DNA of 32,000 nucleotides from Guillardia theta nucleomorph. Lineage: Eukaryota > Protista > Cryptophyta. The stretch is from the NCBI GenBank assembly GCA_000002975.1, contig AF083031.2, positions 30,001 through 62,000 of the forward strand, read 5' to 3'. A program made the translations under genes and the position numbers. The notes beneath the pieces were generated by a model, which was not told the DNA's origin, made no database searches, and was given only the letters and a program-made list of their open reading frames with translations. Shown one piece after another: positions 3,078 to 23,754 of this stretch (the stretch's first letter is position 1; the number at the start of each line of letters is the position of its first letter).

Positions 3078-3110
3078 AAAATTTATATATTTTAATAAAT
3101 TATTAACTTA

Positions 3111-3814
3111 ATGTTTATCAATGTCTATTTGATTAAATCATTTAAAATCAAAAAATATTCTAATACAAGAATTTATAGTAATATTTGTTCAAAAATGTCA
3201 ATGAAAAAAAATTACAAACTAATATTATATTCAGAAAACTCGATAATGTTTAATCTTTATACAAATGTTATGTCATTAAAAACTACAAAGAATTATTTTA
3301 GAAAACACATTTTAGATTCATTGTCCCTAGTACTTTTATCAATAGTTTCTACCTGAGAAACACAGAATGTAATATTATTGACATTGGTTCTGGAAGTGGC
3401 ATACCTGGTATAATTATTTCAATAAGTTTTCTAAATTTTTTTTCAATATTAATAGATTCCGTTATGAAAAAAACTGTTTTTCAAAAAAAGATTAAAAACA
3501 TATTATACCTAAAAAATTTTTTTCCTTTATGTGCTAGAATTGAAAAATTAAAAACTATTAAAGGGAAAATACAAATTAATTTCATTTTTTCAAGAGCGTT
3601 TAGTGACTTGAAATCTTCGATATTGTATATATCAGATTTTGATGAAAAAATTACAAAAAGTTTGTTTTTAAAAAAGATTGAAAGTTCTAACAAAGAATTC
3701 TCTTCTTCATTAGCAAATCTTAACGATTTTAAATATAAAATAAAAGTATTAGTCAAAATTGATAAAAAGAGTAAAGGTAGAATGCTTGTGATGATTGAAA
3801 AATCCAATCTTTAA
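3111..3814 (+). pseudogene. gidB: GidB/RsmG 16S rRNA m7G methyltransferase (plastid-type), split by a -1 frameshift near 3330-3340; pseudogene or sequence error
   Basis: The frame from 3111 gives NLYTNVMSLK...RKHILDSLSL and stops at TGA 3354-3356. The -1 frame continues FINSFYLRNTECNIIDIGSGSGIPGI...LIDSVMKKTVF...ARIE...SRAF to 3814. An N-terminal extension precedes the domain. Confidence 0.85.
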
Positions 3815-6984: not shown

Positions 6985-7039
6985 ATTTCAGTAATAATTA
7001 TTGTCAAATATATCAAAGACTCTAGTCTGCATCATTTTA
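6985..7039 (-). ncRNA. Box C/D snoRNA, snR78/SNORD52-like (LSU rRNA Um2421, yeast numbering)
   Basis: Minus strand: box C ATGATG(C) 7035-7029, guide CAGACTAGAGTC 7029-7018 complementary to conserved LSU GACUCUAGUCUG, D' TTGA 7016-7013, C'-like TTGACAA, box D CTGA 6991-6988. The D'+5 rule lands on the U of GAC-U-CUAG. Confidence 0.85.
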
Positions 7040-20700: not shown

Positions 20701-20937
20701 GGTATCTTTAATCCTAGAATGAAAAGGGGTGACTGTATTGCCAATATTTTTTTCAAAAAAAGTTCCAATACTCATACTTGTGTTTATAAATTTAATTTCT
20801 AGAAATGAATTGTAGTTCCATATTTCGTTTTCGATTTTCTTAAGGATCGATATTAGTTGGTAATTTATAAGTTTGTTATAAGATTCAATCTGTTGCCAAA
20901 TTAAACCTCTAGATATTAAATACAATCTTAAATTCAT
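17788..20937 (-). CDS. rpc2: RNA polymerase III second-largest subunit
   Basis: DPGGYFIIKGTEKVILIQE, DYYGNKRLELSG, FEKTRK, DTPEGESCGL, GDKFSSRHGQKG and IPYACKLLLQEL. Confidence 0.96.
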   Translation of the reverse strand: MNLRLYLISRGLIWQQIESYNKLINYQLISILKKIENEIWNYNSFLEIKFINTSMSIGTFFEKNIGNTVTPFHSRIKDTTYSIDIYSDLFIRINNKKKFINNNLIFKIPLMLKCNRCILYGKKEDFYIKINECPLDPGGYFIIKGTEKVILIQEKLVLNRIGIEKDKSGNFYSYVISSYKKRNTKSFIIIKENKIYFRNKIFIEDIPIFIILKAFGFENNLDIIDLIGYEFESTLFYSLTESLKIGFVNQFQSVCYLMQKLDIRFIETNKITFFYNESNYQILDHILSHIIVNKNPVSQNLEKGIFMTMMIRKLLYALQIPDLLDSKDYYGNKRLELSGDLVEILLEDLLHKSWIESKKFIEKKKIEVNETIYHHFIKSDFISYGIENAFITGNWKINKYGIDKNGITQILSRLSFMSSFSMLLKTSSNFEKTRKSISPRNLHPTQWRFICTSDTPEGESCGLIKNLALLSHISIQENDYFLAKVCNILGVDSKLSSIKTIKNYLNMTKIFLNQKLIGFHQFPSKFLFCFRNMRRSNLIESSVSIYWDSTMKLIWILSDKGRLCRPLYIIENGILKSKKKHLKLYSKKIINWNILTKFGFIEYIDSNEENNTIIADSLKAINFRSSHLEISEGNILGISASLIPFSDHNQSPRNTYQCSMGKQSASFLGFNQNSRIDITLSLLIYPQKPILKTKILNLIGAGKCPTGINTCISIMSFTGYDVEDAIILNKSSVERGFFKTAFLRKTKIEISSFRHLTQLFSKVNHNNKEVFEFLNKSNNNNQKITSNLKYSDNLVVVKYGLDLTLAKFLIRECRNPEIGDKFSSRHGQKGICGFIKPQQDMPFSEKGICPDIIMNPHGFPSRMTIGKTIEIILSKSGCISGKFKDGSIFKKININTIVKSLRSFGFVSNGEDFMYNGITGNLINNQIYSGIVFYQRLKHMVKDKIHSRATGIKSKLTYQPVEGRSKGGGLRFGEMERDCLISFGASELALDRLLLNSDCYEAKFDKNSGIIHTSNSNTNVVAVKIPYACKLLLQELQSMNIIARLNFNN

Positions 20938-20942
20938 ACAAA

Positions 20943-21041
20943 GCGGTATTAGCTCAGCTGGAAGTATTTCAACAGCGCAGGTCTCATATTGTACGCGATC
21001 CTGAGGTCATGAGTTCGAGTATTATTTTCTCATATACCGCA
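20943..21041 (+). tRNA. trnM(CAU): Elongator tRNA-Met(CAT) with three introns (20965-20973, 20989-20997, ~21020-21027)
   Basis: Acceptor GCGGTAT/ATACCGC plus A73; D-stem GCTC/G|AGC; anticodon arm CAGGT-CTCATA|A-TCCTG with U31:U39; T-arm ATGAG-TTCGAG|T-CTCAT. Removing 9+9+8 nt gives a 73-nt cloverleaf. Confidence 0.92.
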
Positions 21042-21042
21042 A

Positions 21043-21555
21043 TCAGAGTTTTCCAAGGTATTTATCATCAATGCAACCAATTGCCTGAATTGATCCGGTG
21101 TTATATTTTAAATTAAGAATTTTACATCTTATTATATCGTTTTTTTTAATATTGATTGTAGAATTTTTAAAATTAAACAAAGTTTGGGATTGTTGTGAAA
21201 TTAAATCTTGGGAAATAAATTTATTTGATATAAAGATGTTTAATATTCCAGCAGATGCAAATATACCAAAAGATGTAATGTTCTTTACAATAGCATCAAT
21301 TATTTCACCTTTGAAAATTTTTAATACAACTGCCTGGAAATTCACTTTAAACAAAACGCTAGAAAAACCTGGTAGAATTTTACCATATAATTTCTGATTA
21401 TCAATGTTAATTATCATAATAATAGATCCTACATTACCAAATGGCAATCCTTCAGTTAATGTTATTAGCTGTGCAATAAGTGTAGATTTTAGTTGATTAT
21501 TTAACAATTTTGCAGGAATAAATAAGTTTTGATTCAATGTCATAATTGCATACAT
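21043..21555 (-). CDS. rpb7: RNA polymerase II subunit RPB7
   Basis: VNFQAVVLKIFKGEIIDAIV, GIFASAG and AIGCIDDKYLG. Starting at ATG 21555 gives 170 aa; the longer ORF just reads through the tRNA-Ala antisense. Confidence 0.92.
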   Translation of the reverse strand: MYAIMTLNQNLFIPAKLLNNQLKSTLIAQLITLTEGLPFGNVGSIIMIINIDNQKLYGKILPGFSSVLFKVNFQAVVLKIFKGEIIDAIVKNITSFGIFASAGILNIFISNKFISQDLISQQSQTLFNFKNSTINIKKNDIIRCKILNLKYNTGSIQAIGCIDDKYLGKL

Positions 21556-21630
21556 GGGGAAATGACGCAGTGGTAGCGTGTTTGTTTTGCAAGCAAAAGG
21601 TCGTGGGTTCAAAAACTCCCACTTTCTCCA
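21556..21630 (+). tRNA. trnA(UGC): tRNA-Ala(TGC) with a 3-nt T-loop insertion/intron (~21614-21616)
   Basis: Acceptor GGGGAAA/TTTCTCC with G3:U70 and A73; D-arm ACGC/GCGT; anticodon arm TTTGT-TTTGCAA-GCAAA; T-stem GTGGG/CCCAC with a 10-nt loop TTCAAAAACT. Confidence 0.93.
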
Positions 21631-21633
21631 CAT

Positions 21634-23754
21634 ATGATAATTCTAATTGACAATCTTAAAATATTTTTACCATTTAAAAAAATTTATCCAGAGCAAATTC
21701 AATTATTGCATTTAATTAAAAAATTATGGGATATGAATGATAATATTTATTTTAAAATTCCAAAAGGGGTAGGGCTGAGTATTATTTTGTTTTTGTTATT
21801 TTATTATTATTTTACGTTAATTTCCAATGAATATAAATTTATATTCGTAGTTGAAAATTCAATTGAGAAGGAAAATATATCTACTCAAATATTATATTTA
21901 AGAACGAAGGGAATAAATTTAAATAATAGAATTTTAAATTTTCCTGATAGAAATGATTTATGTATAAATTCTAAAGTAAACTCTAATTATATTAATAAAG
22001 AGATTGATAATTTATGTACAAATTTGATTAAATCATCATTGGATGTTATTCGAAGTTCTTTAAATTCTAAATTTGACTTCGTAAATAAATTCAAACTTAA
22101 ACCAAACTGCAATTTTTATATAAACTTTCTATTAAAAAAAAGAAAAATTTATAAAAATTATATTGATACAAGAAAAATTTTAAAATTTAGTAGAAACAAT
22201 AAAGTTTGCCCATATTTTTTTATTCTAAATAATGTAGAAGATTACAATTTTTTGATTTTAAAATTTGATCAAATTATACATTCTTCTAAAAATTATAATT
22301 TAACAAAAAATAAAAAAAAGATTTTTTTACTATTTAGTAATTTTGAAAGTTTTTCTGCTTTACTAAAATCTAAATCAATTATAAGCCTCTCGTTGAAAAC
22401 AATTATCGATTCATATCGAAGTTTGATTATAGTAGAAAGGGATATCATTAAAAAAAAAATTTTCCAAATTAATGTTCTAAAAACATTTAATAATTTCCAT
22501 TTAAAAAAGAATTTTTTTTACATTAAAAAAAATAAAAAAATTTTAAACAACTATTTAGTTACAAAATTAAATTTTCAAAATAAATTTCTACATGAATTAT
22601 ATTATTTAAATTCTTATAGATTTTTCTTAGAAACTCTGCTAAAATTGATTTCAAAAAAGGAAGAAAAATACATATCTTCAATAAATATTTATAAAGACAT
22701 TTTTTTAGATGAGAATGAGATTGAGATAGCACCTGTTTACTTTCAAAATTTTAATGATAATATCTCTCATTATTGTAAGACATATTCATTTTTTGACAAT
22801 AAATCTTTAAACGGAATAAAAAAAATATCCAATTTTTTGATTTTAACCAAATTTTTTTTAAACTATCAAAATAATTTTATAAATATAAAAAGTGAACTTG
22901 ACAAAAATAATTCAGAAAAATTTAAATTAACTTTAGAAATTGATTTTAATTTTGGAATTTTTGAATTTTTTTTTGAACTTTTTAGATCAATTTTTATAAC
23001 AATTAATAATGATTTCGAAATTTCTAAAGCAAATAATTTTTTTAATTGTAAAAATATGTTCTTGGGAAGTATAAAAAATTATCAAAAAAACAAGAATTGT
23101 AATTATATTTTGACAAAATATGTAAACCAAAACAACAAAGCTTCGAAAAAAGATTTATACGAAGATTATGATTTTATAGGTTCAATTCTAAAACTTCAAA
23201 TTTTAGTGGTATTATTTATATTTGATTCAAATAACATTATTGATGATTTTACGAAAAAATTTTTAAAACCTAATATGGAAGATATACTTAATTTTAGAAA
23301 CATAATTATTTATGAAAATTCAAACATTCAAAATTCAAAATTTTTTGATCTTTTTGTGTTGAATTTTGAGTTAGGTTTAAAATGTTTAATAATAACTGAT
23401 GAAAAATCTTACACAGACTTTAATTCGTATTTTTTAAAACATGCTAATATTATAGTAAAGTTTTCATGCGAAAGAAAAAAAAATTGCAGTAGAATAGGAA
23501 TTTTTGGTAAAAATTTTAATTTTTTACCAAAAAATCATAAATTTTTAACGATTTCTTGTACAATAAACGATATTAATTGTTATTCTTTTAAAAAAAAATA
23601 TATTCCAATTGTGATTATAGATTATTTCAAGGAAAATTTTTTTTCAAGCCAATTTTTTTTTTCGTTTTCTGAAGAAAAACTATGTACAAAAAAAAAAAAA
23701 CAAAATATAGTGAATGAGATTAAAAATTTTTTAATTAAATGGTTGTCAATTTAA
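21634..23754 (+). CDS. rad3: Degenerate XPD/Rad3 TFIIH subunit
   Basis: IDNLKIFLPFKKIYPEQ (Q motif); four Fe-S cysteines in RNDLCIN, DNLCTNL, CNFY and CPYF. Confidence 0.85.
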   Translation: MIILIDNLKIFLPFKKIYPEQIQLLHLIKKLWDMNDNIYFKIPKGVGLSIILFLLFYYYFTLISNEYKFIFVVENSIEKENISTQILYLRTKGINLNNRILNFPDRNDLCINSKVNSNYINKEIDNLCTNLIKSSLDVIRSSLNSKFDFVNKFKLKPNCNFYINFLLKKRKIYKNYIDTRKILKFSRNNKVCPYFFILNNVEDYNFLILKFDQIIHSSKNYNLTKNKKKIFLLFSNFESFSALLKSKSIISLSLKTIIDSYRSLIIVERDIIKKKIFQINVLKTFNNFHLKKNFFYIKKNKKILNNYLVTKLNFQNKFLHELYYLNSYRFFLETLLKLISKKEEKYISSINIYKDIFLDENEIEIAPVYFQNFNDNISHYCKTYSFFDNKSLNGIKKISNFLILTKFFLNYQNNFINIKSELDKNNSEKFKLTLEIDFNFGIFEFFFELFRSIFITINNDFEISKANNFFNCKNMFLGSIKNYQKNKNCNYILTKYVNQNNKASKKDLYEDYDFIGSILKLQILVVLFIFDSNNIIDDFTKKFLKPNMEDILNFRNIIIYENSNIQNSKFFDLFVLNFELGLKCLIITDEKSYTDFNSYFLKHANIIVKFSCERKKNCSRIGIFGKNFNFLPKNHKFLTISCTINDINCYSFKKKYIPIVIIDYFKENFFSSQFFFSFSEEKLCTKKKKQNIVNEIKNFLIKWLSI

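What the first reader, a model, noticed from the sequence alone, without database searches (positions are those of the whole stretch)
21608..21617. Three-nucleotide intron in the T-loop of tRNA-Ala
Seen: an otherwise perfect tRNA-Ala has a 10-nt T-loop. Removing AAC (21614-21616) at 59/60, the same position as the tRNA-Met T-loop intron, restores TTCAAAT. It is too short to form any bulge-helix-bulge, so the excision mechanism is unclear. I recall a 3-nt tRNA intron being reported from the G. theta nucleomorph, so this may be known.
Basis: partly seen in the sequence, partly recalled or inferred. Interest (0 to 1): 0.75.

Follow-up and report, generated by a model that had tools for sequence, protein, structure and literature searches.

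The report
Three-base intron in algal alanine tRNA
An alanine tRNA gene in the tiny leftover nucleus of a cryptophyte alga carries three extra bases exactly where its relatives carry 7-17-base inserts, so it is likely one more of the three-base introns already reported from this genome, whose removal is still unexplained.

Summary
tRNA-Ala(UGC) at 21556-21630 has a 10-nt T-loop, identical in three other assemblies. The window is chromosome 3 of the Guillardia theta nucleomorph. A 2014 review says Kawach 2005 confirmed 3-nt T-arm introns there by RT-PCR in tRNA-Cys, -Val and pseudo-Leu; Ala is not named, and I could not read the original. New here: 12 of 12 syntenic nucleomorph orthologs from metagenomes carry an AT-rich 7-17-nt insert at the same place. 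Site 59/60 gives the same mature loop in 11 of 12 distinct genes. So AAC is likely a shrunken ancestral intron. Likely mechanism (inferred): its first A pairs with U54, leaving the 3-nt bulge that tRNA splicing endonucleases cut; two successive cuts and ligation follow. Against: 33 RNA reads showed the insert kept and no spliced form, although the three-intron tRNA-Met control showed no splicing either. Removing AAA instead also gives a valid loop. The scan had not noted this before, only a D-loop intron on other DNA.

The parts
21556..21630 (+). tRNA-Ala(UGC) gene; anticodon 21588-21590; G3:U70 pair; no encoded CCA
   Evidence: Rfam RF00005 64 bits; cloverleaf fold; stems counted
21556..21613 (+). 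5' exon, through T-loop position 59
   Evidence: alignment with 12 orthologs
21614..21616 (+). 3-nt insert AAC, predicted intron at 59/60; could slide to an AAA triplet within 21611-21615
   Evidence: Rfam insertion; orthologs have 7-17 nt here; site test
21617..21630 (+). 3' exon, positions 60-73
21608..21617 (+). 10-nt T-loop of the unspliced RNA; U54 (21608) could pair with the first insert base A (21614), leaving a 3-nt bulge 21615-21617 (inferred)
   Evidence: sequence; constrained energies -1.7 vs -6.0 kcal/mol
20943..21041 (+). elongator tRNA-Met with three inserts: 22/23 (20965-20973), 37/38 (20989-20997), 59/60 (21020-21027); comparison case
   Evidence: all three present in 8 of 8 orthologs found
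21043..21555 (-). rpb7 (170 aa), starting directly beside the tRNA; the 196-aa version from 21633 that covers the tRNA antisense is likely a start-codon artefact
   Evidence: Pfam S1 and SHS2_Rpb7-N; homologs align from the 21555 start; extension not kept in orthologs
21634..23754 (+). DEAD_2 (Rad3-like) helicase gene, downstream synteny marker
   Evidence: tblastn hits beside the tRNA in 12 of 12 ortholog loci

Best explanation
The three bases AAC at 21614-21616 are likely a real tRNA intron at position 59/60, the shrunken remnant of an insert that is 7-17 bases long in related nucleomorphs, and are predicted to be cut out by the nucleomorph's tRNA splicing endonuclease and the ends ligated to give a normal TTCAAAT loop. 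Shown: the insert, its position, and longer unconserved inserts at that position in orthologs. Inferred mechanism: 59/60 is the same place in the 7-nt T-loop (between loop bases 6 and 7) as the canonical 37/38 site is in the anticodon loop. U54 would pair with the third-last intron base, as base 32 does in the anticodon-intron pair, leaving a 3-nt bulge (two intron bases plus U60) closed by G53-C61, which is the usual 3' splice-site shape. In a 3-nt intron that partner is the first intron base, so 3 nt would be the shortest intron that keeps this shape. The two cut sites are too close to sit in both active sites at once, so the cuts would be made one after the other, probably the 3' site first.
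For: 12 of 12 syntenic nucleomorph loci (of 38 pattern matches) carry an insert of 7-17 nt, 69-100% AT, while exons match the window at 56-68 of 72 bases. The search pattern did not include the T-arm, so intronless orthologs could have appeared; none did. 21 other tRNA-Ala-like matches outside nucleomorphs have 7-nt loops (read by eye). Site 59/60 gives TTCRAAT in 11 of 12 distinct Ala genes (58/59 and 60/61 give TTCGAAT in 9 of 12) and TTCGAGT in 8 of 9 Met genes. The third-last insert base is A in 11 of 12 Ala genes; in Met anticodon introns it is G, pairing with C32, in 9 of 9. Review PMC4090602 reports RT-PCR-confirmed excision of 3-nt T-arm introns in three other tRNAs of this genome. A predicted tRNA endonuclease, Gt2_171, is nucleomorph-encoded (PMC6559170).
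Against: No spliced read was seen: of 33 reads of run X21 laid on 21551-21640, sense depth is 18.3 at 21611-13, 11.7 at 21614-16, 6.7 at 21617-19 and 6 at 21620-22, with no gap or joint reaching the 3-read listing threshold. So most molecules sampled at that place keep the insert. The review's list of 3-nt introns omits Ala. The U54:A signal is weak: A is 57 of 142 insert bases, the last base is also A in 10 of 12, the genes are related, and only 6 of 9 Met T-loop inserts fit, the window's own Met not among them. The paired shape costs 4.3 kcal/mol against the open loop. None of the 12 orthologs forms a full 4-bp helix with 54-57 (best 3 of 4). Validated T-loop introns of Chondrus crispus are given as 58/59 (PlantRNA 2.0 preprint).
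Confidence: 0.65

Rival explanations
1. The intron shrank below what is spliced, or was lost imprecisely, and the mature tRNA works with a 10-nt T-loop. The extra bases would enlarge the 59-60 bulge and leave the T54-A58 and D-loop contacts intact.
For: Unspliced RNA is what the reads show: depth continues through 21614-21616 and about 6 reads reach 21620-21622 with no listed gap. Many sense reads start at 21562-21567, near G9, which could be stops at a modified base and so partly matured molecules (inference). Ala is absent from the review's list of confirmed 3-nt introns.
Against: The control has no power: tRNA-Met, with three introns, also gave no joints at sense depth 1.5-6.2. Only about 6 in 100 of the run was read, reads are at most 60 nt, and modified mature tRNA is poorly copied in ordinary RNA-seq (established knowledge). 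3-nt T-arm introns are reported as excised in the same genome. All 12 orthologs need a cut at this site.
Confidence: 0.2
2. It is spliced, but the triplet removed is AAA (58/59 or earlier), giving a TTCAACT loop.
For: Three registers give TTCAACT. T-loop introns validated in Chondrus crispus are placed at 58/59. The recalled abstract of Kawach 2005 says some spliced products differed from predictions (recalled, not seen).
Against: 58/59 gives four different loops among 12 Ala genes and three among 9 Met genes, whereas 59/60 gives near-uniform loops.
Confidence: 0.1
3. The gene is dead or the insert is an artefact: a pseudogene replaced by imported tRNA, a sequencing error, or an in-frame insertion kept by the overlapping antisense reading frame of rpb7.
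For: The databases hold a 196-aa Rpb7 that runs antisense across the tRNA, and a 3-nt insert keeps that frame. tRNA import into this compartment has been proposed (PMC6461891 passage).
Against: Three other assemblies show the same letters. All stems and G3:U70 are intact and the RNA is transcribed. Rpb7 homologs start at the 21555 ATG, and in orthologs the upstream frame differs and often holds stops. No other Ala tRNA is listed for this nucleomorph.
Confidence: 0.05

Closest known systems
3-nt T-arm introns of G. theta nucleomorph tRNA-Cys(GCA), tRNA-Val(AAC) and pseudo-tRNA-Leu(UAA) (Kawach et al. 2005, as summarised in PMC4090602)
   Same: Same genome, same arm, same length; no bulge-helix-bulge; removal unexplained as of that 2014 review.
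   Different: tRNA-Ala(UGC) is not named among them in the review. Their excision was shown by RT-PCR; for Ala I saw no spliced form. Whether the original paper covers Ala could not be checked.
T-loop introns of red algal nuclear tRNAs (Cyanidioschyzon merolae, PMC3728597; Chondrus crispus, PlantRNA 2.0 preprint)
   Same: Protein-spliced introns in the T-loop, in the lineage from which the nucleomorph derives; splicing validated by RT-PCR.
   Different: C. merolae introns are 11-69 nt and mostly form bulge-helix-bulge or relaxed motifs; C. crispus sites are given as 58/59. Here the insert is 3 nt and best placed at 59/60.
Canonical eukaryotic 37/38 introns cut by TSEN (PMC10485636)
   Same: Equivalent position in a 7-nt loop; a single proximal pair plus a 3-nt bulge could mark the 3' site.
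   Different: TSEN measures from the tRNA body to the anticodon loop, which cannot apply to the T-loop; canonical introns are 6 nt or longer (PMC4090602).

Membership tests
Non-canonical nucleomorph tRNA introns (Kawach type) | Lies in a cryptophyte nucleomorph tRNA gene | tested here: met
   Window ORFs of 261, 283, 187 and 744 aa match Gt3_261, Gt3_283, Gt3_187 and Gt3_744 in name and accession order (4 of 6 names asked were found); record length 174133 equals the recalled length of chromosome 3.
Non-canonical nucleomorph tRNA introns (Kawach type) | Insert at a fixed non-37/38 position whose removal restores a standard cloverleaf | tested here: met
Non-canonical nucleomorph tRNA introns (Kawach type) | Length and sequence free to vary while exons are conserved | tested here: met
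   3 nt here, 7-17 nt in 12 of 12 orthologs; exons 56-68 of 72 identical.
Non-canonical nucleomorph tRNA introns (Kawach type) | Absent from the mature tRNA | tested here: inconclusive
   No spliced read among 33; the tRNA-Met control also showed none.
Non-canonical nucleomorph tRNA introns (Kawach type) | Removed by a tRNA splicing endonuclease and ligase | not testable with these tools
   A predicted endonuclease is encoded; no activity data seen.
Archaeal-type bulge-helix-bulge introns | 4-bp central helix flanked by two 3-nt bulges | tested here: not met
   Impossible with 3 nt; best 3 of 4 pairs in orthologs. Not filed here.
Canonical eukaryotic TSEN introns | Position 37/38 | tested here: not met
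   Insert is in the T-loop. Not filed here.
Canonical eukaryotic TSEN introns | Proximal pair between first loop base and third-last intron base, leaving a 3-nt bulge | tested here: inconclusive
   U54:A possible in 11 of 12 Ala genes but inserts end A-rich; 6 of 9 Met T-loop inserts fit; 9 of 9 Met anticodon introns fit.

The most novel reading that the evidence does not exclude
The intron shrank past the point of being spliced, and the nucleomorph's only alanine tRNA decodes all four GCN codons on 80S ribosomes with a 10-base T-loop: an intron caught halfway through loss and turned into permanent tRNA structure.
Probability: 0.2. Interest if true: 0.65.

Novelty: new member of a known kind. 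Interest (0 to 1): 0.4.

Why it matters
Three-base tRNA introns are known from this genome, and a 2014 review says it is not known how they are spliced. This gene is a clean substrate for that question: one intron only, a tRNA listed as the sole reader of alanine codons, and a natural length series at the same site (3, 7, 11, 13, 15, 17 nt) from relatives. It also gives a testable reason why 3 nt could be the floor: one pairing base plus two bulge bases. If the insert is instead kept, a 10-nt T-loop works in eukaryote-type translation. The class is not new, and this very intron may already be in Kawach 2005 or PlantRNA, neither of whose gene tables I could see.

Tried and rejected
No whole genome was held, so the other G. 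theta nucleomorph tRNAs, including the three reported 3-nt introns, could not be compared; the U54:A idea is untested on them. Kawach 2005 is not in the library. Paper searches for 'tRNA + 3-nt intron + nucleomorph' and 'smallest intron + tRNA + Guillardia' gave 0 papers; searches gave reviews and genome papers, and none of the passages I read names a nucleomorph tRNA-Ala intron. That covers only this library and those passages. The EMBO J 2026 figures with intron counts and structures are images and could not be seen. Pattern and protein scans of viral contigs and of prokaryote genomes found nothing. Rejected: sequencing error; protein-frame constraint from the 196-aa rpb7 annotation; bulge-helix-bulge. 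ARAGORN is blind to these genes (0 in the window; 2 genes in 12 loci). Earlier scan notes: none for this genome or this sequence.

Full report
Observation. The window holds tRNA-Ala(UGC) at 21556-21630 on the + strand. Rfam scores it 64 bits against a gathering score of 29 and models 21614-21616 as an insertion; ARAGORN finds no tRNA in the window. All 7 acceptor and 5 T-stem pairs form, G3:U70, the alanine identity pair by established knowledge, is present, and the RNA folds as a cloverleaf with a 10-nt T-loop (z -1.93). Contigs from runs X1, X2 and X9 cover 20800-21800 without a differing letter or gap (X2 may be the window's source). The insert is real. The triplet is ambiguous from sequence alone: AAC removal gives TTCAAAT, AAA removal gives TTCAACT.

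Source. The window is AT-rich and densely packed with eukaryotic housekeeping genes. Its proteins are in NCBI on a record of 174133 bases, which from recall is chromosome 3 of the Guillardia theta nucleomorph. This was checked: the supplement of PMC6559170 lists Gt3_261, Gt3_283, Gt3_187 and Gt3_744 (4 of 6 names asked), whose lengths and accession order match the window's ORFs, with five accessions between Gt3_187 and Gt3_744 and five ORFs between them here.

Neighbours. An elongator tRNA-Met lies at 20943-21041 with inserts at 22/23, 37/38 and 59/60, matching the review's statement that this tRNA has three introns. An open frame of 196 aa runs antisense across tRNA-Ala and is the version held in databases. 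Rpb7 homologs align from the second ATG at 21555, and in orthologs the upstream frame differs and often holds stops. So protein coding does not explain a 3-base length.

Orthologs. A pattern from the D-arm and anticodon arm, blind to the T-arm, matched 38 metagenome loci. Twelve are nucleomorph-like and syntenic, with rpb7 divergent upstream and the Rad3-like gene downstream. All 12 carry a T-loop insert: 7 nt (1), 11 (3), 13 (6), 15 (1), 17 (1), 69-100% AT, with exons 56-68 of 72 identical to the window. Their Rpb7 proteins are 34-37% identical to the window's and fall in three deep groups; two pairs of loci are near-duplicates. Of the other 26 loci, by eye, 21 are tRNA-Ala-like genes with 7-nt T-loops outside nucleomorph context and 5 are not whole tRNAs. 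The N-terminal extension of protein P0153 reads as the antisense translation of one more ortholog with a 13-nt insert (inferred).

Which site. Among 12 distinct Ala genes (L026 dropped as identical to L024), removal at 59/60 gives TTCRAAT in 11; 58/59 and 60/61 give TTCGAAT in 9, with three other loops each. Among 9 Met genes, 59/60 gives TTCGAGT in 8; the other sites give three or more different loops. This favours AAC. Validated T-loop introns of Chondrus crispus are given as 58/59, so the alternative stays open.

Mechanism. Position 59/60 in the T-loop is equivalent to 37/38 in the anticodon loop. In eukaryotic pre-tRNAs only the proximal anticodon-intron pair is conserved and critical, and the 3' site resembles the archaeal bulge (PMC10485636 passages). 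The nucleomorph keeps this rule for its anticodon introns: the third-last base is G, pairing with C32, in 9 of 9 Met genes. For the Ala T-loop the third-last base is A, able to pair with U54, in 11 of 12 genes. This is weak support: A makes up 57 of 142 insert bases, the last base is A in 10 of 12, the genes are related, and only 6 of 9 Met T-loop inserts fit, the window's own not among them. No ortholog forms a full 4-bp helix, in line with statements that most of these introns lack a bulge-helix-bulge. In the window the paired shape is 4.3 kcal/mol less stable than the open loop, so it would need the enzyme. I infer that AAC is the minimum that keeps a 3' splice-site shape, and that the cuts are sequential because sites 3 nt apart on one strand cannot fill both active sites. 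A predicted endonuclease, Gt2_171, is encoded in this nucleomorph. None of these steps is shown.

RNA evidence. Raw reads came from one entry, X21, found by species label; about 6 in 100 of it was read. First mates are sense, judged from rpb7. On 21551-21640, 33 reads were laid, 21 of them at 99% or more; sense depth peaks at 29 and falls 18.3, 11.7, 6.7, 6 across 21611-21622, with no gap, joint or 3' loose end at the 3-read threshold. The fall fits the 60-base read length. Most molecules that reach the site keep the insert. This counts against splicing, but weakly: tRNA-Met, with three introns, also showed no joints at sense depth 1.5-6.2, and mature modified tRNA is poorly copied in such libraries.

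What is known. PMC4090602 (passages and section 5 read) says the G. theta nucleomorph has 9 tRNA genes with non-canonical inserts of 3-24 nt, that excision was confirmed by RT-PCR including 3-nt T-arm introns of Cys(GCA), Val(AAC) and pseudo-Leu(UAA), and that the mechanism is unknown. Ala is not named. Kawach 2005 itself was not seen. PMC13578239 (passages and part 1 of 2 of its appendix; figures not visible) lists Ala(UGC) for all four GCN codons of the nucleomorph. Passages only were read of PMC3017389, PMC3514955, PMC3728597, PMC3978253, PMC6461891, PMC9548191, PMC10485636 and the PlantRNA 2.0 preprint (its supplements not seen); passages and supplement rows of PMC6559170. The unseen gene tables may already list this intron.

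Verdict. A real feature, likely a 3-nt intron at 59/60 (0.65; 0.75 counting the AAA variant), of a kind already reported from this genome. The added value is the ortholog length series and a testable minimal-bulge model. A retained 10-nt loop (0.2) is not excluded. Interest 0.4.

Noticed in passing
window 20943-21041 (+); L002 9373-9472, L027 9375-9473, L025 360-458, L011, L023, L030, L015, L026: Elongator tRNA-Met has the same three introns (22/23, 37/38, 59/60) in 8 of 8 orthologs found; lengths 8-10, 8-11 and 7-12 nt. Most D-arm introns hold a CC or CT near the 3' end that might pair with the D-loop GG.
   Followed up: partly
window 21043-21633 (-): The database Rpb7 (196 aa) likely starts 26 codons too early, reading antisense through tRNA-Ala; homologs start at 21555. 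P0153 shows the same artefact in another species.
   Followed up: yes
window 3099-3814 (+): gidB is split over two frames: 3099-3356 ends just after a HILDSL motif and 3302-3814 holds the glycine-rich motif and the Pfam GidB match. Could be a frameshift, a short intron or a sequence error (motif names recalled).
   Followed up: partly
window 6987-7039 (-): Intergenic box C/D snoRNA-like stretch, weak match to SNORD52 (24.7 bits, E 0.3, below the gathering score). Nucleomorph snoRNAs are described in PMC6461891.
   Followed up: no
window 21589-21590: In run X21, 7 of 29 sense reads show G>T and 5 of 29 show C>G at anticodon positions 35-36, while A37 shows no listed misreading. Unexplained: slippage, modification or foreign reads.
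   Followed up: no
L002 14271-14373 (+), L027 14386-14486 (+): A long-variable-arm tRNA with apparent inserts in both the D-arm and the anticodon loop, missed by ARAGORN and by Rfam at gathering score.
   Followed up: no
L001, L003, L004 and 18 more loci: 21 non-nucleomorph tRNA-Ala(UGC)-like genes share the unusual ACGC/GCGT D-stem with a short D-loop; several sit in tRNA clusters. Origin not examined.
   Followed up: no
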